Assembly: GCA_022565155.1 (NCBI GenBank)
Contig: JADFKB010000006.1
Coordinates: forward strand, 53-64,052
DNA length: 64,000 bases
Source of the DNA: Chloroflexota bacterium
GTDB taxonomy: Bacteria > Chloroflexota > Dehalococcoidia > DSTF01 > RBG-16-68-14
Direction of reading: 5' to 3'
Below are positions 16,667-31,439 of this stretch, piece after piece. Positions within the stretch are counted from its first letter, which is position 1, and every line of letters starts with the position of its first letter. Both the position numbers and the translations under genes were made by a program. Below the pieces are notes generated by a model. The model was not told the DNA's origin. It saw only the letters and a program-made list of their open reading frames with translations, and did no database searches.

Positions 16667-16668
16667 AC

Positions 16669-17331
16669 ATGGCCGGCAAGACACGCGTGATGATTGTGGA
16701 CGATCACGAGGTCGTCCGTGAAGGGCTGCGCTCACTGCTGCGCCGGCGCGAGGAGCTGGCCGTCGTTGGGGAGGCGGATTCGGTGGCATCCGCTATCGAA
16801 GAGGCGCGCAAGACCGAGCCGGACGTCGTGATCATGGATGTCCGCCTACCGGACGGCAGCGGCGTCGAGGCCTGTCGCGAGATCAGGTCTGAGCGTCCTG
16901 ACACTAAGGTGCTAATGCTTACGTCGTACGCCGACGAAGAGGCCGTGTTCGCCTCAATCATGGCGGGTGCGGTCGGCTACCTCCTGAAGCAGACGAGTAC
17001 GAGAACGCTGATCGAAGCGATCGAGCGGGCGATGAGGGGCGAATCACTTCTCGATCCCGCTGTTACGCAGCGCGTACTGGAGCGCGTGAGGAGTGGCAAG
17101 CAGGACGAGGACGAGGAGCTCGCGCTCCTTTCAGAACGGGAGCGCAAGATCCTCGACCTGATCGCGGAAGGCAAGACCAACAAGGAGATAGCGAAAGAGA
17201 TCTTTCTTAGCGACAAGACGGTGAAGAACTACGTCAGCAGCATCCTCAGCAAACTGAACATGCGCCGGCGCTCAGAGGCAGCCGCATTCATCGCCCGCCG
17301 GAGCCCGCGCACCGAGGAATCCCGAGACTAG
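16669..17331 (+). CDS. NarL-family response regulator, DosR/DevR-like
   Basis: VDDHEVVREG, MDVRLPDGSG, GKTNKEIAKEIFLSDKTVKNYVSSILSKL. Confidence 0.9.
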   Translation: MAGKTRVMIVDDHEVVREGLRSLLRRREELAVVGEADSVASAIEEARKTEPDVVIMDVRLPDGSGVEACREIRSERPDTKVLMLTSYADEEAVFASIMAGAVGYLLKQTSTRTLIEAIERAMRGESLLDPAVTQRVLERVRSGKQDEDEELALLSERERKILDLIAEGKTNKEIAKEIFLSDKTVKNYVSSILSKLNMRRRSEAAAFIARRSPRTEESRD

Positions 17332-17401
17332 CGCCAGCCTCTCGCCACGAGAGGTGTCTCTACTTTAGGCCCACGCGAAGTCTATCGAGCCTCGGGAACA
17401 T

Positions 17402-18067: not shown

Positions 18068-18450
18068 TCGTACGCGTCCTTCTTGTGGATGCTCACGAAG
18101 AAGCCAGGCAATCGCTCGTCCGCAGGCTAGAGAGCGACGGCCGTGTGATGGTCGCTGCCCAGGCGCCAACGGTCGCGGAGGCTGGCGTCGTTGTTCGGGG
18201 CGCACAGTGTGACCTCGCGCTCATGAACGTCCAGAGCCACGACAACGAGTCGATTGCTCGGTGTCAGGAATTGCGCAGGCTGACCGAAATCCCGCTGGTC
18301 GTGCTCGCTTCCTTCATGACCATCGAGCAATGGCGGGCCCTGAGACAGGCCGGCGCCGCTGACTACCTGCTCAAACACGCGAACAGCCAGCGCCTCTGTA
18401 GCGCGATCGTGCGGTTGGCTGACCGGCATCGGTCGGATGAAGGGAGTTGA
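18064..18450 (+). CDS. Stand-alone receiver-like domain (atypical, Asp to Asn)
   Basis: VRVLLVDAHEE, DLALMNV, PLVVLASF, AGAADYLLK. Confidence 0.7.
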   Translation: MIVRVLLVDAHEEARQSLVRRLESDGRVMVAAQAPTVAEAGVVVRGAQCDLALMNVQSHDNESIARCQELRRLTEIPLVVLASFMTIEQWRALRQAGAADYLLKHANSQRLCSAIVRLADRHRSDEGS

Positions 18451-18453
18451 ACG

Positions 18454-18963
18454 ATGACGGTTGCTATCGGTATCATCGGCTGTAAGAATGCGGGCAAGAC
18501 GACTCTGATAGAGGGCCTGCTCAAGGAATTCGCATCCCGAGGACTGCGTGCGGCGACGATTAAGCACGATGCGCACGATTTCGAGATCGACATCCCTGGC
18601 AAGGACACCTGGCGACATCGCGCAGCCGGAAGCAAGCTGACGATCATCGCGTCGGCGTCGAAGATCGCGCTGGTGCGTGAGAACGAGCGCGAGGCTGAGC
18701 TGCACGAACTGCTTCAGTTCGTCGACGACTCGTTCGATCTGGTGCTCGTGGAGGGTATGCGGAACAGTCCGTTGCCGAAGATCCTGGTCCGGCGTTCCGG
18801 CGCGGGCGACGACCCTCCCGGTATTCAGGGAGAGATCCTCGCAGTCGTTTCAGGAGACGCCGAGGCTGCTTCGCGGACAGGCCTCTTCCGGCCAGACGAC
18901 GCGGCGGCGCTCGCGGACCTCATTCAGGAGCGGCTGCTCAACAAAGAGGCGATGACGGCTTGA
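18454..18963 (+). CDS. mobB: Molybdopterin-guanine dinucleotide biosynthesis protein B
   Basis: GCKNAGKTTL P-loop, TIKHDAHDFEIDIPGKDTWRH, DLVLVEG. Confidence 0.9.
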   Translation: MTVAIGIIGCKNAGKTTLIEGLLKEFASRGLRAATIKHDAHDFEIDIPGKDTWRHRAAGSKLTIIASASKIALVRENEREAELHELLQFVDDSFDLVLVEGMRNSPLPKILVRRSGAGDDPPGIQGEILAVVSGDAEAASRTGLFRPDDAAALADLIQERLLNKEAMTA

Positions 18964-19568
18964 CAAAGGACAACGTCATCGGAGCAGTTCTCGCCGGCGG
19001 TTACGGCCGTCGCATCGGCTGCGACAAGGCGACCGTCGAGCTCGACGGCAGACCGCTGATCAGCTACCCGGTTGGCGCACTGAGGTCGGCGGGCCTCGAC
19101 GTTGTTCTGGCACTGCGCAGTGGCCAGGAGATGCTAGCTGGCCTCGATGACGTGAGCTTCGTCCACGACGAATTCGAAGGCGCCGGGCCGCTGGGAGGCC
19201 TCCACGCACTACTCAAGTGGATGCCGGGCGAATGGGCGCTCGTGGTCTCCTGTGACCAGCCGTTCGTCCGAGTGAACCTGCTGCACGGCATCATGTCCCA
19301 CAGCGATTGTACGGCCGACGCCGTCGTCGCGCGGATGTCGGAGTGCCTGCAGCCAATGCCCGGCCTTTTTCGAAAGACGTGCCTGCCGTTCGTTGAAGAG
19401 GCCTTGGCCAAGGGCGAGATGGGCCTCCGGAACCTGCTGCACCACATCCGCCTCTACGAACTGGAGGGCGAAGAGATCGACCGCCTCGACTTTGAGCGCT
19501 CTTCCTTCATCAACATCAACACACCAGAGGATCTCGCCAACGCTCGTCGTCTCGCGGTCGCGCTCTAG
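18960..19568 (+). CDS. mobA: Molybdenum cofactor guanylyltransferase
   Basis: VLAGGYGRRIGCDKA, GPLGG, SCDQPF, FININTPEDL. Confidence 0.9.
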   Translation: MTKDNVIGAVLAGGYGRRIGCDKATVELDGRPLISYPVGALRSAGLDVVLALRSGQEMLAGLDDVSFVHDEFEGAGPLGGLHALLKWMPGEWALVVSCDQPFVRVNLLHGIMSHSDCTADAVVARMSECLQPMPGLFRKTCLPFVEEALAKGEMGLRNLLHHIRLYELEGEEIDRLDFERSSFININTPEDLANARRLAVAL

Positions 19569-19673
19569 TTGGACGGCTTCAGCACAGAAGGGGACGCACT
19601 GAGCACAGCCATTGCAGTGCTGGTGCCGGGCGGCGATCGTTTTGGCTCCCGAATCGCGCCGATTGGCCCCTTG

Positions 19674-19929
19674 GTGGTTCCGGCGCCTACGTTCAGCGCG
19701 GGCTGTGGACGGAGATTGGCGCGGGAGTCCGCTCCGAAGCTTCTTCGCCGATGTTAAAGGCGCCGGCCAGGAGCCCGACTCCGAGGATGATGAGCAACTG
19801 ATGGTAGGTTGCTTCCGGCATATAACCAGCTACCAATAGAAGAAGCAGGCCTGTTCCAAACCAGAAGGCGTCCTTGTCACGAAAGCAGGCCACGACCGTC
19901 ACGAGATAGAGAGCCTGTGACAGGAGATA
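19674..19929. repeat. Direct repeat copy 1 (about 255 bp): duplicated 3' end of the membrane-protein gene at 21909-22943
   Basis: Near-identical to about 21891-22145; encodes TVVACFRDKDAFWFGTGLLLLLVAGYMPEATYHQLL versus ...FWLGTGLLLLLVAGYMPEATYHHLL. Confidence 0.9.
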
Positions 19930-20137
19930 GAGTTGGAGGCCGGGGGGCCTCGCCAGTCTGCCGGCGGCCGTACTTGCTCACCGTATCGAGCCGGAATGCA
20001 GTTCGTTATGGGCCGCTTCGGGGCCCCTCCTCGACTACGTAAGCTAGGACACGGACAGCTCTCTTCGCAGCCCGGAGAATAGTAGTGGCTACTGGTGTGA
20101 GGGCAGCCGTTGGTTGCTTACCGTCACCTTGTGCGCA

Positions 20138-21028
20138 ATGGAGCGACGCGTGTCTCACCACGACTTTCGGTACGAGAGCAAGTTCGCCACTATCGACGGC
20201 ATGCGGATCCACTATGTGGAGGAGGGTGCGGGCCGGCCGGTGCTGTTTGTCCACGGCAATCCGACGTGGTCATACTTGTGGCGTAACATCATCCCCAAAG
20301 TGGCGGAGACTGAGCGGGCGCTCGCGATCGACCTGCTTGGCTTTGGAAAGTCCGACAAGCCGGTCGATGCCGACTACAGCTTCGACCAGCACTGCGCGAT
20401 CGTCAGCGAGTTCATTCAGTCGATGGGCCTGAAGGACGTCGCGCTCGTGCTCCACGACTGGGGCGGGCTGATCGGGATGAACTATGCCATCGATCACGTG
20501 AAGAACGTGCGCAGGGTCGTCTTGCTGTCGACGTTCGTAGCGCCGGTCGCGCTGCCGTTCGCCTCCGTTCTCCGGCTGATCCGGGATTCTGCCCTTACGC
20601 CACTCTTCGTCCAGCGGCTGAACTTGTTCATGCCTCTCGTATTACGGTTGGGCGTCGCGAGACGCTCGAGCATGAGCGACGGCGTGCTAGAGCAGTATTA
20701 CGCTCCGTTTCCTGACTACGCCTCTCGCCGTTCAGTCCGGCGATGGCCGGAGCAGATTCCGCTCGTCCCTTCGGACATCACCTACCAGGCGCTGGATCGT
20801 ATCGGTCGAGCCTTGCCATCGTTCGATAGGCAGGTGCTCGTGCTGAAGGCGGACCGCGATCCGATCCTCACGATGAAGCGTGCAGAGTGGCTCGTGCAGA
20901 CGCTGCCGCGGGGGCGTCTGGTAGTGATCGAACAGGCCGGCCACTTTGCCCAGGAGGACCAGCCGAACAAGGTCGCGACAGCCATCAGCGCATTCTTGCG
21001 CGAAGAGGGTCAAGGAGACAGCACATGA
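20138..21028 (+). CDS. Alpha/beta hydrolase, haloalkane dehalogenase-like
   Basis: HGNPTWSYLWR, DLLGFGKSDKP, LHDWGG (nucleophile Asp), AGHFAQED. Confidence 0.85.
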   Translation: MERRVSHHDFRYESKFATIDGMRIHYVEEGAGRPVLFVHGNPTWSYLWRNIIPKVAETERALAIDLLGFGKSDKPVDADYSFDQHCAIVSEFIQSMGLKDVALVLHDWGGLIGMNYAIDHVKNVRRVVLLSTFVAPVALPFASVLRLIRDSALTPLFVQRLNLFMPLVLRLGVARRSSMSDGVLEQYYAPFPDYASRRSVRRWPEQIPLVPSDITYQALDRIGRALPSFDRQVLVLKADRDPILTMKRAEWLVQTLPRGRLVVIEQAGHFAQEDQPNKVATAISAFLREEGQGDST

Positions 21029-21750
21029 GCACCATAACCCAGCATAGCGCTATCAGGCGATGGCTCATTCGCTTCAACGCGGGCGATAGCAGGCTGAAGC
21101 GGTTTACCCTCAAGCTCTCTTACTATGTCTTCATCGTGCTCCCGTACCCACTGCGGCGGGTCGCGGCCGCCGCGTTCATCCTCGCGACGTTGGGCGTGAA
21201 GAAGCTCGCTGGGGTCGAGCGCCAGAACGAGCTGACGCCGCTGGACGAGGTGGGGACGCTGTCGTTCTGGGGGGTGCCCGGCGTCGATACGGTCGCGGCT
21301 ACGCTGACCATCGGCGGCGAGGTCGAGCGCGATGTTGAGCTGCGGATCGACGAACTCATCGCGATGCCGACCGTCGAGCGAACAGTTCGGATGGATTGCG
21401 TGGGCGGCTTTCGCAACAACACCGTGATGACCGGGGTCAGCGTCGCCCACCTCTTCGATCTGGTTGGGGTACGCGATTCCGCCGTTCGGGCCGTCTTCTA
21501 CTGTGCGGATGGCTACTACGAAAGCATGTCGATCTCTGAGCTAGTCGAGGGCGAGGCGTTCTTGGCCTACCTGGTGAACGGCGAGCGCGTCGACAAACTC
21601 GGCAACCCGCTGCGATTGGCCATCCCGGGTAAGTACGGCTACAAGTGGGCGAAGTGGATCCAGCGGATCGAGCTCGTCGACGATGAGCGCAAGGGCTATT
21701 GGGAGAGCCGGGGACTGCCGGACCGGGCGAACCTTGGGGATGTTTGGTAG
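21025..21750 (+). CDS. Sulfite-oxidase-family molybdopterin-binding oxidoreductase with an N-terminal hydrophobic segment
   Basis: LTIGGEV, MDCVGG (Mo-ligand Cys), CADGY, GNPLRLAIPGKYGYKWAKWI, GYWESRG. Confidence 0.85.
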   Translation: MSTITQHSAIRRWLIRFNAGDSRLKRFTLKLSYYVFIVLPYPLRRVAAAAFILATLGVKKLAGVERQNELTPLDEVGTLSFWGVPGVDTVAATLTIGGEVERDVELRIDELIAMPTVERTVRMDCVGGFRNNTVMTGVSVAHLFDLVGVRDSAVRAVFYCADGYYESMSISELVEGEAFLAYLVNGERVDKLGNPLRLAIPGKYGYKWAKWIQRIELVDDERKGYWESRGLPDRANLGDVW

Positions 21751-21908
21751 GGCCGTAAAGGAAGGGGGCACCCGTTTGTCCCTTCTCCTATTCCAACCCC
21801 ATGGCTAATGACAATGGCCGCCATTCTGGCGGCCACCTGTCTGTGTCAGACCTCGACCATCTGCTTGCTGATCTCTTTCCTGGCATTTGATGGTTCCGCC
21901 GCCTACGT

Positions 21909-22943
21909 TCAGTTTGGGGCGTGGACGGAGATTGGCGCGGGAGTCCGCTCCGAAGCTTCTTCGACGATGTTAAAGGTGCCTGCCAGGAACCCGACTCCGA
22001 GGATGATGAGCAAGTGATGGTAGGTTGCTTCCGGCATATAACCAGCTACCAATAGAAGAAGCAGGCCTGTCCCGAGCCAGAAAGCGTCCTTGTCACGAAA
22101 GCAGGCCACGACCGTCACGAGATAGAGAGCCAGTGACAGAAGATACACCGGGGACGGCAGGAAGAAGCTCATGCCTGTCGTCCAGAGGGCGAGGATCGAT
22201 GTGGTGGAGGACGGGGTCATGGTGCTAAGCCCTACGACGGCCACGAACCCAACCACTAGCGCAATTCCGACACGCCCGGCAAGCCGCCAGCGTGGTCTTC
22301 CCCACGCCCAGAAGACAGCCGCGCCCGCGAGCACGACCAGCACCTCTCCCCACCGAAGTACGTCGATGCCCAATGGCGGCAACGCGGCGTAGTCGAGCAG
22401 CCGATACGCAATGTGAGACAGGGAGTAGTACTGATAGCAGAGATATGCTCCAACAACGAGGGCGACAGCCACGCGCGGACTGGTTCTGACGTCCTTCCTG
22501 GCCATCAGCGTGACGCCGAGCATCAGGACTGCCAGCGTGGCGGCTAACCCAAACGCCCCGTCCCAGGCGGCCCCTCCTGTGACCAGGCTCATCGCGAGGC
22601 TGATCATCAGTGCTCCTGAGATCGCGGCGAGAACGAAGCGAGCGACACGGTCTCGTACCTGCGTCGTCATTACGAGGAGCAGCAGCACGGTCAGCACGAT
22701 CGCCAGGATCGATGCGGAGTTGAACGCGAACGAACCGACGAACGATGCAGCCTGTAGACCGTCGCCGGCTAGCTCGCTGCGAGGAACGTGCACGCCTATC
22801 CGTGTCGTCAGGCGAAGGAGAACGATCTCCAGCAGCGCAGCTACGACCAGACCGAGAACGACCTGTCGCAAGAGAGTCTCGCTGACCGACAGCCGAGGGA
22901 GCTGCCACTTGTAGGACATACGCGAGACCGTTGGGCTAAGCAT
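21909..22943 (-). CDS. Polytopic membrane protein, last gene of the nxr-like operon
   Basis: Roughly ten hydrophobic segments; co-oriented and tightly spaced after the gamma subunit. Confidence 0.75.
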   Translation of the reverse strand: MLSPTVSRMSYKWQLPRLSVSETLLRQVVLGLVVAALLEIVLLRLTTRIGVHVPRSELAGDGLQAASFVGSFAFNSASILAIVLTVLLLLVMTTQVRDRVARFVLAAISGALMISLAMSLVTGGAAWDGAFGLAATLAVLMLGVTLMARKDVRTSPRVAVALVVGAYLCYQYYSLSHIAYRLLDYAALPPLGIDVLRWGEVLVVLAGAAVFWAWGRPRWRLAGRVGIALVVGFVAVVGLSTMTPSSTTSILALWTTGMSFFLPSPVYLLSLALYLVTVVACFRDKDAFWLGTGLLLLLVAGYMPEATYHHLLIILGVGFLAGTFNIVEEASERTPAPISVHAPN

Positions 22944-22954
22944 CTTCCGCTGCC

Positions 22955-23950
22955 TCAGGCCGTCTGGCGCCGCGTGTATAGAAGGTAGCTTCCTGCGGCG
23001 GCCAGACCGACGATTACGACGAGACCTACGACTACGAAGAGCCCTACTGCCTCGCCTGACAGACCACCGCCGCCACCTGTTGCGATCTCCGGCGAGATCT
23101 CCAGAGTCATGAACTGGGACACGGATTTGATGCCGTCCCGTTCGGCCCTGGCTCCATCCCAAACGGCGAACGCTACGTTCGTGCTGTCTCCCTCGCTGAA
23201 CTGCGCGTACTCGCCGGCGACCTCTAAGTCGCGCGAGAAGACGACTCGCCACTTCCCGTCATCCCAACTCCCCATTCCATTCACCATCTGGTCTTCGGCC
23301 GCCCTAAGGGTGCCGAAGCTCCCGGCTAGCAGGTTGTCGGCCGCGCTCGTGCGGTCTGCCCGCGCGACAATATTGCCGGAAGCGCTTGCCGGATAGAACT
23401 CAGCTTCGTCTTCGAATGGGTACAGGTCCACGTCCACGTTCGGGTACACGTCCTGCACGTCGAGAACGGAGGCGCCCGTTCCGGTCTGCCAGGACGCTTT
23501 CCACTGCCAGATGTTGACCGGCGCCTCCGGGTTGCCCATGCAGAACGCCGGTACGCTCTCGCCATGTTCGACCGGGAACTGAACGGCGGCCGCATCGGTG
23601 AAGTCATTCTGACGGCCGGTTGATGCGTCCTCCGACTCATCGTTCCACTCCAAGCGGATGTAGAGTTTCCCGTCATGGTGTAGCGCGCGTGCGGTGACGG
23701 TCCCCTGGTCCCCGCCTTTGGGCGCCACGACATTCTGCCCACTCAGAGGCACCTGTATTGGCGCGCCTTTGTCCCAGACGTCGGCTGACGGGTCATCGAG
23801 CGGTATTGCGTTTTCGCTGCGCTTGGCGACGAGCGTGATCGTCTGCGAGGATGCCAGCCGCAGGTCGAGCAGGGTCAGTACCGCGGCACCGACGAGCACG
23901 AGCGCGAGAATGCCGGTCGAGAGTCTCCTAGAGCTGGATAAGGTTCCCAT
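22955..23950 (-). CDS. Heme b-binding gamma subunit (EbdC/NxrC-like) with signal segment and C-terminal membrane anchor
   Basis: LYIRLEWND, FTDAAAVQFP, FCMGNPEAPVNIWQWKA, WRVVFSRDL, VAFAVWDGARAERDGIK (Met/Lys heme ligands as in EbdC). Confidence 0.85.
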   Translation of the reverse strand: MGTLSSSRRLSTGILALVLVGAAVLTLLDLRLASSQTITLVAKRSENAIPLDDPSADVWDKGAPIQVPLSGQNVVAPKGGDQGTVTARALHHDGKLYIRLEWNDESEDASTGRQNDFTDAAAVQFPVEHGESVPAFCMGNPEAPVNIWQWKASWQTGTGASVLDVQDVYPNVDVDLYPFEDEAEFYPASASGNIVARADRTSAADNLLAGSFGTLRAAEDQMVNGMGSWDDGKWRVVFSRDLEVAGEYAQFSEGDSTNVAFAVWDGARAERDGIKSVSQFMTLEISPEIATGGGGGLSGEAVGLFVVVGLVVIVGLAAAGSYLLYTRRQTA

Positions 23951-24707
23951 TGCCGTCTCCTGACTGCACGAGCGGACACTCAGCCGTCGAACAACCCTCT
24001 TCGCTGACGTTCGTTCGCCAATCCGTATTGACCTCGAGGACTTCTGGCTGCGCACGAAGATAGGCGATCTCATCAGCGAGGAAGGCATCGAGCAGCGCGG
24101 CAGTAGCCGCGAACAATCCTTCCGGGGCTCTACCGGCCAGTTGCTGGGCGAACTGGCGACCCCAACGTCCAAGATGGTCTTGGACAAACTTCCGTTGCAC
24201 CACGCGGCACAATCGGGCCTTCGCGGAGCCGTGATGGAGCTGGGCGACCGCCTCTTTAGACGTGAGCAGGTGCATGAACTCCAACTCGACGGTGATGTGA
24301 TCCGGGCGCTCACGCTCGGCGAGCTCCATGCCGAAGGCGCGGAAGAACCCGGCGATGTCACTCAACTGGGCCGTCTCTTCGAAAATCTCCCGAGCCGTGT
24401 AGACTGTCTCGCACGGCGGGCAGTCCAGCGACAGCAGGTGGCTGAAGATGCGCCCATGTTCGCTCTGCAGTGCGTCAGGGGAGGAGTTTTGCAGCTCCTT
24501 GGCGAAGGCGGCGAGTGGTTCCGAGAACGTCTCGTCCAGAATCTCGGCGGCGGCCTGGGCCTGGGGCAGGTCTTCCTCGCGTAACGCCGCAATGACGTTC
24601 GCGCTGGGGTACATGGTGGCCTGGCAGAGCAGCCGGTAGGCGGCGCTGCGCGCGAAATGACGCGCCGCCGCTTGCTCCTTTCTGGTTTCGATCATCTGTA
24701 CTGTCAT
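23928..24707 (-). CDS. TorD/DmsD-family maturation chaperone
   Basis: CPPCETVY, DIAGFFRAFG, ERPDHITVELEFM, HLGRW. Confidence 0.88.
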   Translation of the reverse strand: MTVQMIETRKEQAAARHFARSAAYRLLCQATMYPSANVIAALREEDLPQAQAAAEILDETFSEPLAAFAKELQNSSPDALQSEHGRIFSHLLSLDCPPCETVYTAREIFEETAQLSDIAGFFRAFGMELAERERPDHITVELEFMHLLTSKEAVAQLHHGSAKARLCRVVQRKFVQDHLGRWGRQFAQQLAGRAPEGLFAATAALLDAFLADEIAYLRAQPEVLEVNTDWRTNVSEEGCSTAECPLVQSGDGNGNLIQL

Positions 24708-24722
24708 GTGTCGTCCTCCGAC

Positions 24723-25988
24723 CTAAATGGAGTTCTGGAACTGACCAGCGAAGTCTCCATTTCGAATGTGGAACGGCTCTTCGACGGAGATGCGCGCCGC
24801 TTCGTTGCCAGATCCATCGAATCCGATGATCGTGTCGTTGAAGAGCTGCACTCTGCGGCCGTTGATCTCCGTATCGAGGATCTCCTCGCCTTCCTCGATC
24901 TCGTATCGGAAGATGATCTTCTGCGTCGCGCGGAAGAGTTGAAGCACTGCCTGCAGCTCTCGTGATGGGTTGGTGTAACGCTCGATCGCGGCGTCGACGC
25001 CCGGGCCGAAGAGCTGACGCAGGTACTGACGCGGCACCCATCGCGGCGGGATGTAGTACACGTTCGGCTCGGTACCAAACTGCGGATAGAGCGGAAGCGC
25101 CACCTGCTCCTTCCGCACCAGGAAGTACAGCGGGTTGGTCGGCGCCTCGGCCCAATGGCCGTCCTCGATGTCCACCAGCCCTTGGAGCCGGATCTTGCCG
25201 ACGCACGTCGCGACGCAGCGCGGCTCCATCGGGATGCCGTTCGTTAGTGGGTCCGTCCCCTCGACTCGCGGGTAGCAGCCAATGCACTTCTCGCTGACCT
25301 GCTGGTTCGGCCTGTACATCGACTTCTTGTAGGGGCACTGTTCAACGCACTTCCGATACCCACGACAGCGTTCCTGGTCGATGAGGACGATGCCGTCTTC
25401 CGGCCGCTTGTAGATCGCGCTCCTCGGGCAAGCCGACACACAGCCCGGATAGGTGCAGTGATTGCAGATGCGCTGCAGGTAGAAGAACCACGTGTTGTGC
25501 TCCGGAAGCTGTGCGCCCTCCGGATGGTACTCGCCTGGCACCCCCGGCTTGCCCTTCGCGGTGTCTTCGTAAAGGTTCGGAGATGTCCATTCCTCATCGG
25601 TCGGGATATAGCCGATAGCGTTGTCTTTGCCCTCCTTCTTGGCGGCCTCGAAGATCGTCATCCCCTTGAACTCGCCGTACGGCGCATCATCGCTCTGCGA
25701 CGATGTGTCCCACGTCTGGCCGCCGGGGTTGGCGTCGTTCAGCATCTGGAGGAGCTTGATATCCCAATGGTGCGGGTAGCCGCCGTACGGCTTGGTCTCC
25801 ACGTTGTTCCACCACATGTACTCCTGTCCGCGGCTGAACGTCCAGGTGGACTTGCAGGCGAAGGTGCAGGTCTGGCAGGCGATGCAGCGGTTAGTGTTGA
25901 AGACAGCGACGAACTGCCGGTTCGGATGGACCTCCGGGAAGCGGTACTCCATCTCCCGCCCTAGCTGCCAGTTGTGAACCTTAGCCAT
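24723..25988 (-). CDS. nxrB: Nitrite oxidoreductase/nitrate reductase beta subunit, Nitrospira/anammox type
   Basis: [79 protein letters not shown]; co-linear with Nitrospira and Kuenenia NxrB as recalled. Confidence 0.88.
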
Positions 25989-26014
25989 CGTTACGACCTC
26001 CAGCCTTCCGGGAG

Positions 26015-29000
26015 CTAGCTTCCACGCGTCTGAATGAAGCCACCGGCCAAGTACTTGTTCATGTCATCGTCCTCTGCCGCCGGGGTCTTGCCGCTCAGAG
26101 CCGGCTTCCAGATGCCTTTCCCACCGAGCCCGCCCGCCTCAGCCTTCGTTACACGCACCAACGTCTCCTTCGGAACGGTGTTGATCGCGTGGTTGTCCGC
26201 CTCGCCGCCGAAGATGAAGGCAGTGGCCACCTTGGCCTTGTGGAACAGGGTGTCCGTCTGGTGCATCGGCATCGCCCAGTCACGTGTGAGGCTCTGCTGG
26301 GAACCGTAGCGCAGGTTGGACTGGTAACCTGTGCCCTCGGATAACGCTCGACCATCAGGACGCGTCTCATGCGCCAGTACGGATCTCTCGGTGGCCATCA
26401 TCGGAGAGTGCTTCATCATGATGATGTTGTACGGGTAAGAAGGGTTGTATCTGGCGCGCAGCATAAGCCGCGCGACCTTGTAGAAAGGATCGTCCGGTGT
26501 CCAGTTCAAATAGGGTCGGTCAGCGGGGTTGGCGTCGATGTAGACGTAGTCACCGTCCTCGATGCCAAGGTCCTTCGCGGCCTGGGGATTGATGTGGACC
26601 TGGTGCTCGCCCACCCCCGGCATCCGCGTGTCCCGCCGATACGGGTCCGCGAAGTTGGAGTCCCAGATCTGGTGCCAGTCGACCATGCCCCACTGAGAGT
26701 GCACGCGGTGTCGGGTTTTGGGTGTCAGGCAGTAGAAGCTGAAGCCGTTTTCCCAGAGCGGGTTCGTCGTCTTCTTGACCTCCGCCCAGGACATCTTGTT
26801 GTTCGCGATCGTTCGCAGGTCCGCATCGAGCACTTCGCTCTGGAGCATCTCAGGCGTAATCCCGTAGTTTTCCGGGCGGATGTACGGGTTGGTGCTGACG
26901 ATGACGTTCGGAAGATAAGGCGTGGCTTCTGGCCCTTCACGATGGACGATCAAGTTCTCTCCATACTCGATGGCCTCCGGGATGTCGCAGTATGAGTTGA
27001 GTCTGCCAGTGTCCGTGAAGAAGGGAACGTTGTCCTCCATCTGCTCGTAAAACGGGACGCGCGGGTACGTGCGGAACATCATCAAGGCGGCACCCGGCTC
27101 TCCGTACTTGCCAGCCATGATGTCATCGACCTTGTAGCCGGTGGTGGTCGTTGACGCGTCCAACAGCCGCTGCAGGTAGACCTCCGGCCGTCCCTCCAGG
27201 GCGAACTTCCAGTAGTCCCTGATGCGCTGGTCGTCCAGCAACTCTGCGAGCTTGGCCGCCATGTTGGCGATGATCGTGATGTCATCTTCCGTGTCGTAGA
27301 GCGGCTTGATCCCTTCCTTGCCCCAGATCTGGAGGAAGGGATTCGAGCAGGAGGCCGTCACCTCGAGCTGTTGGAACTCCATCCAGGAGTTTGCCGGGAG
27401 GATGAGGTCGGAGTACTCGCCAGTGGCCGTCATCTCGATGTCCTGATTGATGATCAGGTCGACCTTGGGATTGACGTTCTTGATGATGCCATAGGCCCAC
27501 TTTGCGTTGTTGATGATGTTCACGTTGTTGAACCACATCACCTTGGTGGGCGTCGGCATGTGGGTCTGGCCGGTGAAGTTCTTGCGACCATGGGTGGGTG
27601 TCTCCACGATCAGCGCCTGGTCGCCGTGGTCCCAGTAGGCCGGCTCCTCATCCTTGGCGTGGCCCTTCACCACGATGTCCGAACCCGACGCGTTCGGGTC
27701 CAGGTTCGGCCGGAGCGGGTCTTCAGCGACCCAGCCCTTGAAGCCCGGCCCCGTCCACGGAGAAGCCTGGAAGAGCGCGGCCTTGTAGTTCCCTGCCCAC
27801 TGGTGGCAGCCGGCCCCCTTTTGGCCGATGTTGCCTGTCAGGATCAACGGCAGGTAGGTCGCGCGGTTGTGCAGTGTGGCGTGGAACCAGTGTTGAATTC
27901 CCTCGCCGACGTGAATCGCGACAGGCTTGATCGTGGCGATGTCCTTAGCGAGCCGCTCGATGAGGTCTTTGGGGGCGCCGCAGATCTCATGCACCGTATC
28001 AAGGTCGTAGTCCTGCAGGTTGATCTTGTACATCTCCCAGACGGTCATCACCGCGACCTCGCTGCCGTCCGCGAGCGTGATCGTGTCCTTGTACTCCAAC
28101 GTCGGGTCGATGCCCTTCTGCACCATGCGATCGCCCAGGTCGTCGCGCGTTATCGCCTTGAGGCTGTTGCTGTTCTGGTCGAACACCACGAAGTCGCCGA
28201 GCTGCTCGTGCTGCTCCTGCGTCAGGCCCTGGAGCGCGAAGCTGGGACCGTCCTGAGATAGGCTCGACCGATAGTTCGGGAAGACTTCGCCGGCCCGCAG
28301 GCGCTTCAGGTTGTCCGTCCGCACGAGGAGCGGGAAGTCGGAGAACTTCTTGACATAATCCTCATCGTGCCAGCCGTTGTCCATGATGATCTTGGAAACG
28401 CCCAGGAAAATGGCGGTGTCGGAGATGCCCGGCCGGACGGAGAGCCAGTAGTCGGCCTTTGTCGCCTGGGGGCTGTACTCCGGCGAGATGATCACGATCT
28501 TCCCGCCGCGCTCCATGGTGTTGTAGAAGAAGTGCGTGTCGGGCATCTTGTTCTCGATCATGTTGACGCCGGCATGGATGTGGAGCTTGGTGTAGATCAT
28601 GTCGTTGAAGTCGCAGTCGGACGTCTGCAGCCCGTGCACAAACGGCTGGCCGGGCGCCTGGTCGCCGTGCCAGGTGTAGTTCGACCAGTTGCGACCGCCC
28701 AGCGCGTCGTCGACATCGATGCCGCGGATGTGGCTGTCGAGGAAAGCCAGCGTATTGGAAAATCGGTACATGCCGTACTTGCCGATTACGCCTAGCAGGC
28801 CCATGCCGCCACGCAGCTTGATCGTGCGTGTGCCGGCGCCATGCATCTCCTCGATCATTTCCGGCTGGTAGCCTTCGGCCGCTAGCCGGCGCGCGCCCTC
28901 TTCGCCACTGTAGGCCCTGGCGATGGCGATCATGCCTCGGGCGGCGTAGTCATGCGCATCGTCCCAAGAGAGTCGTACGAAGATGTCGTGACCCCGGTCG

Positions 29001-29491
29001 GTGAACAGATACTTGTCGCGGTTTTCGGCGGTCAGCTCCGGGAAGCCGTCGTCCGCCCACTGCTTCCATCCCTGGCGAATCATCGGGTGCTGGAGGCGAT
29101 ACGGTCCGTAGACCCGCCGGTGCATGGAGAGGCCTTTCGGACAGCCGCGGGGGTTCCAGTGCTCAGTTGCCTTGTTGCCGAAGAGGTCCTTGATGTTGCC
29201 GCTGTCGTAGTTCTGCTCAATTCGCGTCACGACGCCGTTTCGCGTGAATGCTCGCAGCCGGCACGCGTGGGTGTCGTTGGGCGAGCAAACGAACGTGAAG
29301 CTGTCGTCATAGGCGTACTGGTCGCGATACACGCGTTCCCAGTCGCGATTCGGATAGTTCTCCAGCGGGTTGCCGATGGCGACGGGCTGGAAACGGCGCA
29401 GGGCCAACACGGTGGGGCTGGTAAGAGCCACTCCCGTCGCGGCGGCGGCGCCGGCGAGCTTCAAGAACGCGCGTCGGCTGACTGGCCTCAT
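26015..29491 (-). CDS. nxrA: Nitrite oxidoreductase/nitrate reductase alpha subunit (Mo-bisMGD, Tat-exported), Nitrospira/anammox type
   Basis: Tat motif SRRAFLK, YPNRDWERVYRDQY, CSPNDTHAC...WNPRGCPKG (C-x3-D-x3-C FS0 motif), NYTWHGDQ (Asp Mo ligand); start trimmed to MRPVSRR. Confidence 0.88.
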   Translation of the reverse strand: MRPVSRRAFLKLAGAAAATGVALTSPTVLALRRFQPVAIGNPLENYPNRDWERVYRDQYAYDDSFTFVCSPNDTHACRLRAFTRNGVVTRIEQNYDSGNIKDLFGNKATEHWNPRGCPKGLSMHRRVYGPYRLQHPMIRQGWKQWADDGFPELTAENRDKYLFTDRGHDIFVRLSWDDAHDYAARGMIAIARAYSGEEGARRLAAEGYQPEMIEEMHGAGTRTIKLRGGMGLLGVIGKYGMYRFSNTLAFLDSHIRGIDVDDALGGRNWSNYTWHGDQAPGQPFVHGLQTSDCDFNDMIYTKLHIHAGVNMIENKMPDTHFFYNTMERGGKIVIISPEYSPQATKADYWLSVRPGISDTAIFLGVSKIIMDNGWHDEDYVKKFSDFPLLVRTDNLKRLRAGEVFPNYRSSLSQDGPSFALQGLTQEQHEQLGDFVVFDQNSNSLKAITRDDLGDRMVQKGIDPTLEYKDTITLADGSEVAVMTVWEMYKINLQDYDLDTVHEICGAPKDLIERLAKDIATIKPVAIHVGEGIQHWFHATLHNRATYLPLILTGNIGQKGAGCHQWAGNYKAALFQASPWTGPGFKGWVAEDPLRPNLDPNASGSDIVVKGHAKDEEPAYWDHGDQALIVETPTHGRKNFTGQTHMPTPTKVMWFNNVNIINNAKWAYGIIKNVNPKVDLIINQDIEMTATGEYSDLILPANSWMEFQQLEVTASCSNPFLQIWGKEGIKPLYDTEDDITIIANMAAKLAELLDDQRIRDYWKFALEGRPEVYLQRLLDASTTTTGYKVDDIMAGKYGEPGAALMMFRTYPRVPFYEQMEDNVPFFTDTGRLNSYCDIPEAIEYGENLIVHREGPEATPYLPNVIVSTNPYIRPENYGITPEMLQSEVLDADLRTIANNKMSWAEVKKTTNPLWENGFSFYCLTPKTRHRVHSQWGMVDWHQIWDSNFADPYRRDTRMPGVGEHQVHINPQAAKDLGIEDGDYVYIDANPADRPYLNWTPDDPFYKVARLMLRARYNPSYPYNIIMMKHSPMMATERSVLAHETRPDGRALSEGTGYQSNLRYGSQQSLTRDWAMPMHQTDTLFHKAKVATAFIFGGEADNHAINTVPKETLVRVTKAEAGGLGGKGIWKPALSGKTPAAEDDDMNKYLAGGFIQTRGS

Positions 29492-29814
29492 AACGAATCC
29501 TTCACCTTCCTGGCGAGCTCCCCACGCACCCGATCGACAGAGTCGACCAAGCCTCGAACGTAGGACTCGCCCCTTTGCTGCAAGATGTTGTGGGTCAGTT
29601 TGAATGCCGGATTGTGGAAGAGGCGTAGGATGTTCTCTCCCGTCCATCCTATGCGCATGTACTCTTCAACGATTGAGCACGCCATCTCATCGAGAGCCTC
29701 CTCGTCGGGCTCTTGCTCGAAGCTGACGCCAACAAGCTCCATTGGGTCTTCAGGTTCGAAGGTCTTCTTGTTGACTCTCGGTTCTCTACCTTGTCCCATC
29801 GTGAGCGCTCCCAT
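29488..29814 (-). CDS. Small acidic hypothetical protein, first gene of the nxr-like operon
   Basis: PEDPMELVGV...MACSIVEEYMRIGW...ILRLFHNP; its stop overlaps the nxrA start. Confidence 0.7.
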   Translation of the reverse strand: MGALTMGQGREPRVNKKTFEPEDPMELVGVSFEQEPDEEALDEMACSIVEEYMRIGWTGENILRLFHNPAFKLTHNILQQRGESYVRGLVDSVDRVRGELARKVKDSL

Positions 29815-29858
29815 CTGTGCGTCATTTCACTATCCCAGAGGTGTGCGCAGGATGGGGA

Positions 29859-29872
29859 GAGCCATGTGGCCC
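29859..29872. promoter_or_regulatory. DosR-box-like palindrome upstream of the nxr-like operon
   Basis: GAGCCATGTGGCCC (1 mismatch to GGGNCNNNNGNCCC). Confidence 0.55.
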
Positions 29873-30236
29873 TATGGCCACAGGCCGTAGGCAACATTGT
29901 GGGCCGGTTCTTCGCCAAGCGGCCTAGGCAGCTACAGTTGGTGGAGACTACTACCGATCAGCAGCAGCGGTTAGAGACGCAAGCGCAAGTCGTTGTCCCA
30001 GAAATCGAGCGCGATGTCTGCCCCCTGATCACTGTCAGTGACGCTTGCGAGCTTCAGCAGAGCTGGGCTGAGTTCACGGCTCCGCGCTGGGCTACGAGCG
30101 AATACTCTCTCGCGGCCATACAACCGCTGCAACAAGGGCCGTTTGACCTTCGGATGAGGGCGTCCTGGCACTAGGTAGCTTTCGACGATAAGCGTAGGCT
30201 GCACTCTAACGGACCCTGTTCTCGCCGAGGAGGCCA

Positions 30237-31436: not shown

Positions 31437-31439
31437 GAA

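What the first reader, a model, noticed from the sequence alone, without database searches (positions are those of the whole stretch)
21909..29814. Complete Nitrospira/anammox-type periplasmic NXR operon in an apparently heterotrophic, steroid-degrading host
Seen: a six-gene operon of small protein, Tat-signalled alpha (CSPNDTHAC, NYTWHGDQ), beta ([23 protein letters not shown]), TorD chaperone, heme-b gamma and a polytopic membrane protein. Established: these motifs mark the periplasmic NXR clade of Nitrospira, Nitrospina and anammox bacteria rather than NarGH/Nitrobacter-type enzymes, and NXR is reversible. The beta subunit keeps Cys in 'FACKST', where Nitrospira NxrB has Asp as I recall. 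Inference: the host is not a canonical nitrifier, so this is either an overlooked mixotrophic nitrite oxidiser or an extracytoplasmic nitrate reductase used under low O2. The hypoxia-type regulation favours the reductase role.
Basis: partly seen in the sequence, partly recalled or inferred. Interest (0 to 1): 0.9.

Follow-up and report, generated by a model that had tools for sequence, protein, structure and literature searches.

The report
Anammox-type NXR operon in Chloroflexota
A marine-sediment Chloroflexota bacterium that lives on organic matter carries a complete, intact gene set for the outward-facing enzyme that interconverts nitrite and nitrate; such genes are already known from many uncultured genomes, and sequence alone cannot tell which way the enzyme runs.

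Summary
Window 21909-29814 (minus strand) is a tight six-gene operon: small protein, Tat-signalled NxrA, NxrB, TorD-type chaperone, heme-b NxrC with a C-terminal membrane helix, and a polytopic membrane protein. NxrA scores 1784 bits over its full length against the solved Kuenenia NXR-A (7B04), against at most 190 bits for PcrA, EbdA or NarG. All cofactor ligands described for 7B04 are present. The host is a Chloroflexota from marine sediment. It has an aa3 oxidase, a bc complex and many cupredoxins. RuBisCO, CODH/ACS, ATP-citrate lyase, cytochrome bd, NirK, NarG and NapA were not found. The operon is patchy among relatives (8 of 61 genomes) and sits at a different site in a same-genus genome. 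A DevS/DosT-type heme-GAF kinase with a NarL-type regulator lies 4.6 kb away, beside MobBA; AhbCD-like heme genes lie 9 kb away. 'Steroid-degrading' is not shown. Direction is unresolved. I lean to nitrate respiration when oxygen runs out, with nitrite oxidation as the main rival. NXR-like genes in Chloroflexota and other non-nitrifier genomes are already in print, so this is a new member of a known kind.

The parts
29488..29814 (-). Small cytoplasmic protein (108 aa, no signal peptide, four predicted helices) of an uncharacterised family that travels with NxrA; function unknown, possibly an assembly or escort factor
   Evidence: No Pfam or NCBIfam family. Its stop overlaps the alpha start in ATGA. 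Homologues lie next to alpha in 31 of 42 related loci from several phyla, either upstream of alpha or between alpha and beta. A profile of 26 sequences finds 277 proteins at E<=0.001, all unnamed or 'hypothetical'. Model pLDDT is 87 with no convincing solved fold.
26015..29494 (-). nxrA: Tat-exported Mo-bisMGD catalytic subunit with an FS0 cluster
   Evidence: 7B04_B scores 1784 bits over query 5-1155. C-S-P-N-D-T-H-A-C aligns to Kuenenia Cys67/Asn70/Asp71/Cys75, and WHGDQ aligns to the Mo ligand Asp275 (with residue roles). The twin-arginine motif SRRAFLK is at the N-terminus. It scores below the cut-offs of narG, EbdA and the generic type II model.
24723..25988 (-). nxrB: iron-sulfur subunit (FS1-FS4), no signal peptide, presumably exported together with NxrA
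   Evidence: 7B04_A scores 611 bits over residues 2-410. All 15 Cys in the five Cys motifs align to Cys of Kuenenia NxrB in that alignment. Fer4_11.
23928..24707 (-). TorD/NarJ-family maturation chaperone (NxrD-like)
   Evidence: PF02613, E 5.6e-20. TIGR03482 type II DMSO reductase chaperone, 72 bits, below its cut-off. Found after beta in most related loci.
22955..23953 (-). nxrC: heme-b subunit with an N-terminal signal-like hydrophobic stretch and one C-terminal membrane helix
   Evidence: PF09459 EB_dh, 132 bits. 7B04_C scores 92 bits, and the heme ligands Met155 and Lys305 align to Met and Lys here (with roles). The hydrophobic C-terminal tail scores 2.85 on the Kyte-Doolittle scale. 24 of 34 related NxrC have such a tail.
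21909..22943 (-). Polytopic membrane protein (344 aa, about 10 helices), an accessory specific to Chloroflexota operons; role unknown, perhaps a membrane partner of NxrC. It is not a NarI-type di-heme cytochrome b, because only one His is invariant.
   Evidence: No family. Homologues directly follow nxrC in 9 of 42 loci, all Chloroflexota-labelled or unlabelled. Invariant residues are listed. Model pLDDT is 69, with no solved match.
18454..19568 (+). mobB (18454-18960) and mobA (18960-19568): they make the guanine dinucleotide form of the molybdenum cofactor that NxrA needs
   Evidence: PF03205 MobB, E 1.9e-40. MobA: PF12804 and TIGR02665, 106 bits. Homologues lie beside the operon in L034, L007 and L027.
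15323..17331 (+). DevS/DosT-like heme-GAF sensor kinase (15323-16666) and NarL/DosR-family response regulator (16669-17331); a candidate regulator of the operon, inferred from proximity only
   Evidence: GAF + HisKA_3 + HATPase, and Response_reg + GerE. The GAF domain scores 137-140 bits against DosT 2VZW and 128-133 bits against DevS, with the heme His and the distal Tyr aligned. Homologous pairs lie within about 3-5 kb of the operon in L003, L019 and L008.
38796..41227 (+). Two radical-SAM genes of the siroheme-dependent heme b pathway (AhbC-like and AhbD-like); a possible supply of heme for NxrC
   Evidence: TIGR04546, 570 bits (cut-off 650). TIGR04053, 484 bits (over its cut-off of 395), and heme b synthase, 361 bits. 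The pair lies beside the operon in L003, L026, L034 and L007 and in L058.
19671..22145 (.). 259-nt direct repeat (19671-19929 and 21887-22145, 93% identical). The second copy is the 3' end of the membrane-protein gene. The repeat brackets an alpha/beta hydrolase gene and a sulfite-oxidase-like Mo-domain gene, which marks a rearrangement at the operon's end.
   Evidence: The same duplicate match appears. Genes between the copies.

Best explanation
This is a complete and apparently functional operon for a membrane-tethered, outward-facing nitrite:nitrate oxidoreductase of the anammox/Nitrospira-type (periplasmic NXR) clade. It is carried as a movable accessory module by an aerobic, organic-matter-oxidising Chloroflexota of marine sediments. 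How it works: NxrA, with NxrB riding along, is exported folded through the Tat pathway after a TorD-type chaperone, MobAB-made Mo-bisMGD and probably the small co-translated protein have matured it. Nitrite and nitrate interconvert at the molybdenum (Asp ligand, Asn substrate contact). Electrons run through FS0 (3Cys/1Asp) and FS1-FS4 to a Met/Lys-ligated heme b in NxrC, which one C-terminal helix holds at the membrane, perhaps docked on the sixth gene's polytopic protein. From that heme, electrons are exchanged with high-potential carriers outside the membrane, most likely cupredoxins or the cytochrome c of the bc complex. The bc complex and the aa3 oxidase use the same carriers. The same wire therefore works in both directions, and redox conditions set the direction. 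I judge the main use in this host to be nitrate respiration (quinol to bc complex to carrier to NxrC to nitrate) when oxygen runs out. Nitrite oxidation to oxygen is a possible second use. Shown: gene content, clade membership, ligand conservation, export signals, host inventory, patchy distribution. Inferred: the carriers, the regulator link, the roles of the two unknown proteins, and the direction.
For: Identity of the enzyme: alpha, beta and gamma are best matched by 7B04 chains B, A and C at 1784, 611 and 92 bits. The next solved relatives of alpha score at most 190 bits. The ligands Cys67/Asn70/Asp71/Cys75, Asp275, Met155C and Lys305C are all conserved (read). The window alpha scores as high against Kuenenia NxrA as do the NXR-like alphas of three other MAGs tested (1775, 1571 and 1493 bits). 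In a 51-row tree it lies in a 46-row clade (SH-aLRT 100), apart from haloarchaeal pNarG and NarG.

Reversibility: purified Kuenenia NXR both oxidises nitrite and reduces nitrate in vitro (main text).

For a reductase role or use at low oxygen: a DevS/DosT-type heme-GAF kinase plus a NarL-type regulator lies 4.6 kb away and recurs near the operon in L003, L019 and L008. The own genome (92.8% complete) shows one A-type oxidase only and no cytochrome bd. No NarG or NapA scored over the cut-off in any of 61 related genomes, so this would be the lineage's only respiratory nitrate reductase. RuBisCO, CODH/ACS and ATP-citrate lyase were not found. The operon is an accessory trait: alpha of 65% identity or more is in 8 of 61 relatives including the own genome, and in same-genus G001 it sits between DNA that is contiguous in the own contig C14. 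The wider clade holds known nitrate reducers, Thermogutta and Ca. Methanoperedens, according to PMC10732223 (passages).

Wiring: split cytochrome b + Rieske + a weak cytochrome c candidate; COX1/2/3 + CtaG; 11 Copper-bind matches; a cytochrome c assembly gene.
Against: Nothing in the sequence fixes the direction. The operon lacks the Rieske/cytochrome b module that the haloarchaeal periplasmic nitrate reductase operon carries next to narG. In that respect it looks like the NXR of nitrite oxidisers rather than a dedicated reductase.

The host is equipped for oxic life (aa3 oxidase, many cupredoxins) and lives where ammonia oxidisers supply nitrite. A Met/Lys heme b is described as high-potential, which suits accepting electrons from nitrite.

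No nitrite-consuming enzyme was found: NirK gave only 19 bits, and no ORF has more than one CXXCH. Nitrate respiration would therefore end at nitrite.

The DevS-like pair is absent within 10 kb of the operon in the two closest loci, L002 and L026. No DosR-box-like palindrome lies upstream.

Whether RNA-labelled libraries that hold the operon reflect transcription could not be told.

Confidence: 0.5

Rival explanations
1. Lithoheterotrophic nitrite oxidation is the main role. The cell grows on organic carbon but harvests extra energy, or removes nitrite, by passing electrons from nitrite through NxrC to cupredoxins or cytochrome c and on to the aa3 oxidase. These Chloroflexota would then be overlooked nitrite oxidisers of marine sediments.
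For: The closest characterised relative is a nitrite oxidoreductase, and all its ligands are kept. There is no quinol-oxidising module in the operon, unlike haloarchaeal pNar. An oxidase, a bc complex and 11 cupredoxin matches could supply the high-potential carriers that PMC6050957 names as the extra requirement (passages). The operon occurs near-identically in marine-sediment metagenomes of 9 studies. The nearest relatives carry isolate names of the same pattern as a genome named in the study that sought missing nitrite oxidisers in oxic oligotrophic sediments (PMC11009272 passages); that they come from that study is my guess from the names.
Against: No CO2-fixation marker was found, so this is not a classical nitrifier. 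The trait is patchy in the family. A hypoxia/NO-type sensor lies next door. Only a low-affinity oxidase was found. The energy gain from nitrite is small for a cell with organic electron donors (general bioenergetics, not computed here).
Confidence: 0.3
2. The host is an overlooked chemolithoautotrophic nitrite oxidiser that fixes CO2 by a route I did not detect, for example a reversed oxidative TCA cycle without ATP-citrate lyase.
For: One 2-oxoacid:ferredoxin oxidoreductase alpha gene is present. PMC11009272 notes that nitrite-oxidising Chloroflexota and Ca. Nitrosediminicola also lack ATP-citrate lyase and may reverse citrate synthase (passages).
Against: Only one POR_N match in the own genome, where the reductive cycle needs both pyruvate and 2-oxoglutarate synthases. 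No RuBisCO, CODH/ACS or ATP-citrate lyase. The window is dense in catabolic acyl-CoA genes and has an ABC uptake system. NXR is missing from most relatives.
Confidence: 0.05
3. The enzyme acts on another oxyanion or substrate (chlorate, perchlorate, selenate, or an organic substrate as in EbdA-type hydroxylases) rather than nitrite/nitrate.
For: [quoted passage not shown] Relatives of the host carry many other paralogues of this family.
Against: About 1784 bits to Kuenenia NxrA, with the substrate-contact Asn and the Mo-ligand Asp conserved. Only 190 bits to PcrA and 128 bits to EbdA. The EbdA model scores 140 bits against a cut-off of 2000.
Confidence: 0.05
4. Artefact: the operon was mis-binned or the contig is chimeric, and it belongs to a canonical nitrifier or an anammox bacterium.
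For: The operon's tetranucleotide make-up is in the outer 3.6% of 249 eight-kb pieces of the genome.
Against: The whole contig is ordinary for the bin: rank 88 of 114 in tetranucleotide distance, GC 0.630 against 0.645 +/- 0.014. Independent assemblies of relatives hold the same operon next to genes homologous to other parts of this contig (L058, L003). The nearest 10 tree neighbours are Chloroflexota-labelled or unlabelled. A DNA-run contig bridges the operon's 3' end into the flanking genes (X1 record 3, 19886-22019), though that run may be the source sample.
Confidence: 0.02

Closest known systems
Kuenenia stuttgartiensis NXR-ABC (PDB 7B04; Chicano et al. 2021, PMC8387239, main text read)
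   Same: Full-length similarity of all three subunits (1784, 611 and 92 bits). Same FS0 3Cys/1Asp motif, Mo-ligand Asp, substrate Asn and Met/Lys heme b. Tat signal on the alpha subunit. The solved enzyme is bidirectional in vitro.
   Different: Kuenenia NXR-C is soluble and the complex forms tubules with the cytochrome c NXR-T inside the anammoxosome. Here NxrC ends in a membrane helix, no NXR-T-like or other cytochrome c gene is in the operon, and there is an extra polytopic membrane protein. The Kuenenia cluster has 15 genes; this one has six. The host is an aerobic heterotroph, not an anammox bacterium.
Periplasmic NXR of Nitrospira and Nitrospina (as described in the papers read; no sequence of theirs was available to me)
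   Same: According to PMC8387239 and PMC12758564 (passages), anammox, Nitrospira and Nitrospina NXR form one periplasmically oriented clade. The window enzyme is as near to the anammox member as are the other NXR-like alphas I tested.
   Different: Those hosts are autotrophic nitrite oxidisers in which NXR is a lineage-wide core trait. Here no CO2-fixation marker was found and only 8 of 61 relatives have the enzyme. Direct comparison was not tested.
NXR-like operons of uncultured non-nitrifier lineages: Planctomycetota (PMC10732223), Chloroflexota and Marinisomatota in oxygen-deficient zones (PMC10359470), Chloroflexi JG30-KF-CM66 (PMC6824324)
   Same: Same clade of 'molybdopterin oxidoreductase' genes with strong matches to Kuenenia NxrA, found in genomes with oxygen reductases, with the direction left open by the authors (passages). 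One of the nearest relatives here, L002 at 91%, carries an OFTM isolate name of the same pattern as the MAGs named in PMC10732223.
   Different: In the Planctomycetota loci, nxrC lies upstream of alpha and lacks the C-terminal helix. In the Chloroflexota, Pseudomonadota and Actinomycetota loci it follows the chaperone and has the helix. The sixth membrane gene is confined to Chloroflexota loci.
Haloarchaeal periplasmic nitrate reductase pNarGH (Haloferax mediterranei pHME322, locus L048)
   Same: Outward-facing type II DMSO reductase enzyme with NarH, an EB_dh-type subunit and a TorD chaperone in one operon.
   Different: Alpha is only 27% identical and falls outside the clade in the tree. The haloarchaeal operon carries its own Rieske and cytochrome b genes in front of narG; none is present here.
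Mycobacterial DevS/DosT-DosR hypoxia, NO and CO sensing system
   Same: The kinase's GAF domain scores 137-140 bits against DosT GAF-A, with the heme His and the distal Tyr aligned. HisKA_3 kinase core. NarL-family regulator encoded immediately after it.
   Different: Pfam finds only one GAF domain here; DevS and DosT have two (recalled). The target genes and the ligand are untested.

Membership tests
[quoted passage not shown] | Alpha subunit nearest to known NxrA of this clade rather than to NarG, PcrA, EbdA or SerA | tested here: met
   7B04_B scores 1784 bits over the full length, against PcrA-type 4YDD at 190, EbdA 2IVF at 128 and NarG at 121. In the tree the clade has support 100, apart from pNarG and NarG.
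[quoted passage not shown] | FS0 cluster motif with 3 Cys + 1 Asp, plus the substrate-contact Asn (Kuenenia Cys67, Asn70, Asp71, Cys75) | tested here: met
   CSPNDTHAC aligns residue for residue. Roles are from PMC8387239.
[quoted passage not shown] | Asp ligand of molybdenum (Kuenenia Asp275) | tested here: met
   The D of WHGDQ aligns to chain position 275.
[quoted passage not shown] | Export to the outer face of the membrane: twin-arginine signal on alpha | tested here: met
   N-terminus MRPVSRRAFLKLAGAAAATG. Precomputed PF10518 (the Tat signal family, name recalled) is listed on several close homologues. No dedicated signal-peptide predictor was run.
[quoted passage not shown] | Beta subunit with all-Cys ligands for three [4Fe-4S] clusters and one [3Fe-4S] cluster | tested here: met
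   15 Cys in five motifs, each aligned to a Cys in 7B04_A. The paper states that these clusters are all-Cys.
[quoted passage not shown] | Gamma subunit of the EB_dh family with Met/Lys-ligated heme b | tested here: met
   PF09459, 132 bits. Met155 and Lys305 of 7B04_C align to Met and Lys. The Lys is kept in all 34 related NxrC tails printed.
[quoted passage not shown] | Nitrite-oxidising activity of the enzyme | not testable with these tools
   Needs biochemistry or tracer experiments.
Nitrite-oxidising bacterium (lifestyle) | CO2 fixation pathway (Calvin cycle or reductive TCA cycle in known nitrite oxidisers) | tested here: not met
   RuBisCO large subunit 0 matches, CdhC 0 matches, Citrate_bind 22.7 bits below the cut-off of 26.8, one POR_N gene. 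The genome is 92.8% complete, so absence is not proven.
Nitrite-oxidising bacterium (lifestyle) | Terminal oxidase and high-potential periplasmic electron carriers that accept electrons from NXR | tested here: inconclusive
   aa3-type oxidase and bc complex are present. There are 11 cupredoxin matches and few CXXCH ORFs. No carrier is linked to the operon, and potentials are unknown.
Nitrite-oxidising bacterium (lifestyle) | NXR as a lineage-wide core trait | tested here: not met
   Alpha of 65% identity or more in 8 of 61 related genomes including the own one; 5 of 15 in the same family.
Respiratory nitrate reductase NarGHI | NarG equivalog score, NarI membrane subunit, cytoplasmic active site | tested here: not met
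   TIGR01580 scores 152 bits against a cut-off of 1084. A Tat signal is present. The membrane protein has only one invariant His.
Haloarchaeal-type periplasmic nitrate reductase (pNar) | Alpha groups with pNarG; Rieske/cytochrome b genes in the operon | tested here: not met
   27% identity to Haloferax mediterranei NarG, which falls outside the clade. No Rieske or cytochrome b gene lies within the operon, unlike L048.
Ethylbenzene dehydrogenase / steroid C25 dehydrogenase / perchlorate and selenate reductases | Score over the family cut-offs | tested here: not met
   NF042978 EbdA scores 140 bits against a cut-off of 2000. TIGR03479 scores 339 against 984.
DevS/DosT-type heme sensor kinase with DosR-type regulator | Heme-binding GAF-A domain with proximal His and distal Tyr; HisKA_3 core; NarL-family partner | tested here: met
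   2VZW scores 140 bits. HHP and LYLTDK align to the His and Tyr positions of DevS. The residue numbers His149 and Tyr171 are recalled, and the offset to the chain index is inferred. Domains.
DevS/DosT-type heme sensor kinase with DosR-type regulator | Two tandem GAF domains; control of the neighbouring operon | tested here: inconclusive
   Pfam finds one GAF domain (residues 91-230). No DosR-box-like palindrome lies upstream of the operon, but the consensus used is mycobacterial and recalled.

The most novel reading that the evidence does not exclude
These Chloroflexota, and the many other heterotroph lineages that carry the same operon type (membrane-anchored NxrC plus the conserved small protein), are lithoheterotrophic nitrite oxidisers that pass electrons from nitrite through cupredoxins to an aa3 oxidase. 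They would form a large, unrecognised guild producing nitrate in marine sediments. That guild could account for the shortfall of canonical nitrite oxidisers relative to ammonia oxidisers reported for oligotrophic sediments (PMC11009272, abstract and passages). In this reading the small protein and the polytopic membrane protein are new, dedicated NXR assembly and anchoring subunits.
Probability: 0.25. Interest if true: 0.8.

Novelty: new member of a known kind. Interest (0 to 1): 0.45.

Why it matters
Nitrite oxidation is the only major biological source of nitrate. Whether the many NXR-like genes in uncultured, non-nitrifier genomes make nitrate or consume it is an open question that changes nitrogen budgets for sediments and oxygen-poor waters. 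This locus is a clean, complete and widely distributed example: it is near-identical in marine-sediment metagenomes of nine studies. It also has a candidate oxygen/NO sensor beside it, so it is a good target for expression profiling along sediment redox gradients and for tracer work. It also points to two uncharacterised proteins that travel with the enzyme. On its own it does not settle the direction, and the occurrence of such genes in Chloroflexota is already in print.

Tried and rejected
1. Canonical references in the tree. No stored sequence of Nitrospira, Nitrospina, Nitrotoga or anammox NxrA could be obtained. I used bit scores against 7B04_B as a proxy, with named outgroups from plasmids.

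2. Folds of the two unknown proteins. Foldseek against the PDB gave no match at E<=0.001 for either. VIA-align wide for the small protein gave a best Z of 7.7 (FF domains), within the range the tool calls a common helical arrangement. The Atlas gave only unnamed clusters from Chloroflexota and Planctomycetota. Relaxed Pfam gave nothing useful.

3. Binding of the membrane protein to the NxrC tail. The complex-prediction request did not complete four times, so there is no result.

4. Promoter and terminator scan of the operon. Counts were at or below the shuffled expectation.

5. DosR-box-like palindrome. None lies upstream of the operon. There are 2 window matches with 1 mismatch against 3.7 expected, neither near the operon.

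6. Expression. RNA-labelled libraries X16 and X17 cover all 30 bins of window 15001-35000, and X19 covers 21 of 30. But these are contigs, the flanks are covered too, and DNA carry-over cannot be excluded, so I draw no conclusion on transcription or level.

7. NarI-like role for the sixth gene. Rejected, because only one His is invariant among 8 homologues.

8. Literature. Searches found no paper describing this six-gene Chloroflexota operon, the small protein or the sixth gene. They did find reports of nxr-like genes in Chloroflexota MAGs.

Full report
**What is there.** The minus strand of window 21909-29814 holds six closely packed ORFs:
- A 108-aa protein (29488-29814).
- A 1159-aa molybdopterin subunit, counted from the Met of its twin-arginine signal MRPVSRRAFLK (26015-29494; the mechanical ORF starts further upstream at 29647).
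- A 421-aa iron-sulfur subunit (24723-25988).
- A 259-aa TorD/NarJ-family chaperone (23928-24707).
- A 332-aa EB_dh-family heme-b subunit (22955-23953).
- A 344-aa polytopic membrane protein (21909-22943; start fixed by homologues).

The small ORF's stop overlaps the alpha start in ATGA. The remaining junctions are 11-26 nt gaps or a 26-nt overlap. [quoted passage not shown] They score below the cut-offs of the generic type II models and far below those of NarG and EbdA. The small protein and the membrane protein match no family.

**Which enzyme.** The best solved relatives of alpha, beta and gamma are the three chains of PDB 7B04, the nitrite oxidoreductase of the anammox bacterium Kuenenia stuttgartiensis, at 1784, 611 and 92 bits. 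Alpha and beta align over their full length. The next solved relatives of alpha score much lower: perchlorate reductase-type 4YDD 190, ethylbenzene dehydrogenase 128, NarG 121.

I read the main text of the structure paper (PMC8387239) and counted positions in the printed alignments. The results are:
- CSPNDTHAC is Cys67-x2-Asn70-Asp71-x3-Cys75, the unusual 3Cys/1Asp FS0 site with the substrate-contact Asn.
- The D of WHGDQ is the molybdenum ligand Asp275.
- The gamma subunit keeps the heme ligands Met155 and Lys305.
- All 15 Cys of the beta subunit's five Cys motifs align to Cys in Kuenenia NxrB.

The Asp is in NxrA and is present here. The paper states that the other clusters are all-Cys.

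**Placement.** One scan of species-representative genomes returned 42 loci encoding relatives of alpha. The nearest are Chloroflexota or Dehalococcoidia MAGs (94% over a partial match, 91, 91, 84, 83, 80, 80%) and SAR202 MAGs (72%). NXR-like alphas of 56-67% identity occur in Hyphomicrobiales, Gammaproteobacteria, Pirellulales and other Planctomycetota, Acidimicrobiia, Omnitrophica and others.

I built a 51-row tree (quick IQ-TREE, LG+G4, SH-aLRT only). It used:
- loci with alpha of at least 900 aa;
- eight named or long-contig proteins;
- four regions from related genomes;
- three plasmid-borne outgroups.

I dropped the shorter, truncated alphas.

The tree puts the window alpha in an 11-row Chloroflexota or unlabelled subclade (99). 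This sits inside a 46-row clade (100). The sister group is a three-row clade of about 40% identity, and Haloferax pNarG (27% identity) and Moraxella NarG lie outside.

I could not add Nitrospira, Nitrospina, Nitrotoga or anammox sequences, because none was available as a stored sequence. As a proxy, the window alpha scores 1784 bits against Kuenenia NxrA. That is as high as or higher than three other members of the 46-row clade (1775, 1571 and 1493 bits). The anammox enzyme therefore lies within or next to this clade.

**The operon type.** The small protein is not a local oddity. Homologues lie directly beside alpha in 31 of 42 loci, upstream of it in the close Chloroflexota and between alpha and beta elsewhere. 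A profile of 26 of them finds 277 proteins at E<=0.001, all unnamed or 'hypothetical' and without a Pfam domain. Its model (pLDDT 87) is a four-helix domain with no convincing solved relative.

NxrC comes in two forms. In 24 of 34 loci it follows the chaperone and ends in a hydrophobic helix, as here. In 10 of 34, mostly Planctomycetota, it lies upstream of alpha and has no such tail.

The sixth gene occurs only in 9 of 42 loci, all Chloroflexota-labelled or unlabelled. It has one invariant His, so it is not a NarI-type di-heme cytochrome b. Its model (pLDDT 69) matches nothing solved. A complex prediction with the NxrC tail did not complete.

**Surroundings.** These genes lie near the operon:
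- mobB and mobA, 2.3 kb from the operon's end.
- A kinase-regulator pair, 4.6 kb from the operon's end. The kinase's GAF domain scores 137-140 bits against the heme-binding GAF-A of M. tuberculosis DosT and 128-133 bits against DevS. The heme His and the distal Tyr align (residue numbers recalled). The partner is a NarL-family regulator.
- Two radical-SAM genes of the siroheme-dependent heme b pathway, 9 kb on the other side.

Homologues of the regulator pair, of MobAB and of the Ahb pair recur beside the operon in some related loci: L003, L019 and L008; L034, L007 and L027; L003, L026, L034 and L007. They are not near it in all, and the regulator pair is absent near the two closest loci.

The rest of the window is dense in acyl-CoA dehydrogenases, thiolases, CoA-transferases, two P450s, luciferase-like monooxygenases and an ABC uptake system. 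That fits a heterotroph using lipid-like or alicyclic compounds. I found no steroid-specific marker and did not search for one.

**The host.** The window is part of a 64.8-kb contig of a 2.80-Mb, 185-contig genome, 92.8% complete and 2.1% contaminated. It has a single alpha copy.

Found in the genome:
- One A-type heme-copper oxidase with subunits II and III and CtaG.
- A split cytochrome b with a Rieske protein and a 692-aa membrane protein with a weak cytochrome c domain.
- A cytochrome c assembly gene.
- One 2-oxoacid:ferredoxin oxidoreductase.
- 11 cupredoxin matches.

Not found: cytochrome bd, RuBisCO, CODH/ACS, ATP-citrate lyase over the cut-off, and NirK over the cut-off. No ORF passing my coding filter has more than one CXXCH.

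Among 61 related genomes, the own one included, none has NarG or NapA over the family cut-off. An alpha of 65% identity or more occurs in 8 of them, and in 5 of 15 in the same family. Two further genomes have a 41-44% relative.

The contig is compositionally ordinary. The operon itself is somewhat deviant, in the outer 3.6% of 249 pieces. In the same-genus genome G001 the 7.9-kb operon lies between DNA that is contiguous, about 0.8 kb apart, on another contig of the own genome. In G013 and L003 it lies beside homologues of other genes of this contig. The operon therefore moves as a unit, and the contig is not a chimera.

The stretch occurs near-identically in marine (mostly sediment) metagenomes of nine studies and also in RNA-labelled libraries. 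The latter cover the flanks too and prove no transcription.

**How it most likely works, and which way.** Cofactor ligands and signals are shown; the rest is inferred by homology to 7B04. NxrAB is matured in the cytoplasm and exported by the Tat pathway. Nitrite and nitrate interconvert at the molybdenum. Electrons pass through five iron-sulfur clusters to the heme b of NxrC, which is tethered to the membrane. From there they are exchanged with high-potential carriers that also serve the bc complex and the oxidase. Kuenenia NXR runs both ways in vitro.

For nitrate respiration in this host speak:
- the hypoxia/NO-type sensor next door;
- the lack of any other nitrate reductase or high-affinity oxidase;
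- the lack of CO2-fixation markers;
- the accessory, movable nature of the operon;
- nitrate reducers within the wider clade (PMC10732223).

For nitrite oxidation speak:
- the absence of the Rieske/cytochrome b module that the haloarchaeal periplasmic nitrate reductase operon carries;
- the high-potential heme;
- the oxic equipment of the cell with many cupredoxins;
- a habitat in which ammonia oxidisers supply nitrite;
- the lack of any enzyme to consume nitrite.

I put nitrate respiration with facultative reversal at 0.5, lithoheterotrophic nitrite oxidation at 0.3, and the rest on minor rivals.

**What is known already.** Passages read in PMC10732223 (Planctomycetota MAGs, direction explicitly left open), PMC10359470 (nxrA in Chloroflexota and other MAGs of oxygen-deficient zones), PMC6824324 (nxrAB in a Chloroflexi bin), PMC6050957 (uncharacterised relatives may be nitrite oxidisers if they have high-potential carriers), PMC11265455, PMC13335318 and PMC12766754 show that NXR-like genes in non-nitrifier lineages, Chloroflexota included, are a recognised and unresolved theme.

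My four literature searches found no description of three things:
- the six-gene Chloroflexota operon with its small protein and sixth membrane gene;
- its DevS-like neighbour;
- its relocation between genomes of one genus.

**Verdict.** The finding is real, well described, and a new member of a known kind. It is of moderate interest, mainly as a clean target for deciding the direction question experimentally.

Noticed in passing
window 19671-19929 and 21887-22145: A 259-nt direct repeat (93% identical). The second copy is the 3' end of the membrane-protein gene. The repeat brackets an alpha/beta hydrolase gene (20114-21028) and a membrane-anchored sulfite-oxidase/MsrP-like molybdenum-domain gene (about 21030-21750). 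It looks like the scar of an insertion or recombination at the operon's end.
   Followed up: partly
related genomes G001 (contig C9, about 100-168 kb), G043, G011, G013, G041 and others: Many relatives carry 5-11 matched stretches of further type II DMSO reductase alpha-like genes, with open frames of about 930-1060 aa and 75-127 bits to the narG model. In G001 several are clustered on one contig. The own genome shows none at E<=1e-20. They could be EbdA- or C25-dehydrogenase-like anaerobic hydroxylases.
   Followed up: no
window 31440-34400 (-) and 46308-48275 (-): Two large proteins with cupredoxin domains. One (986 aa) has a plastocyanin/halocyanin-like domain followed by many NHL repeats. 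The other (655 aa) has a C-terminal cupredoxin domain. The genome has 11 Copper-bind matches in all, some in open frames of 160-270 aa that could be mobile electron carriers.
   Followed up: partly
L049 (Natronococcus occultus SP4 plasmid 2) 5001-8198: A 37%-identical NXR/NAR-like alpha lies in a stretch with no annotated feature in the gene table held here for this record (a table the tool describes as incomplete). It is followed by annotated iron-sulfur and TorD genes and, about 3 kb further on, a cbb3-type oxidase subunit I gene.
   Followed up: no
window 3492-4628 (-) and 36468-37298 (-): A nitronate monooxygenase-family gene and a nitroreductase-family gene lie on the same contig as the operon. 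If they act on nitro compounds they could release nitrite inside the cell. There is no evidence of a link.
   Followed up: no
L048 (Haloferax mediterranei pHME322) 1551-10379: The haloarchaeal pNar operon is annotated with Rieske and cytochrome b genes and a small hypothetical gene directly in front of narG. It also has an EB_dh-related gene and a TorD gene after narH. This is a useful contrast in architecture.
   Followed up: partly
window 61649-62986 (+): An ORF combining an alpha/beta hydrolase fold with an adenylate/guanylate cyclase catalytic domain.
   Followed up: no
G004:C92:40796-41365 and contig-end hits in G004, G015 and G053: In several related genomes the alpha gene is split over contig ends, and one fragment carries an in-frame TGA. 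These are probably assembly breaks at a conserved, multi-strain gene rather than pseudogenes.
   Followed up: no
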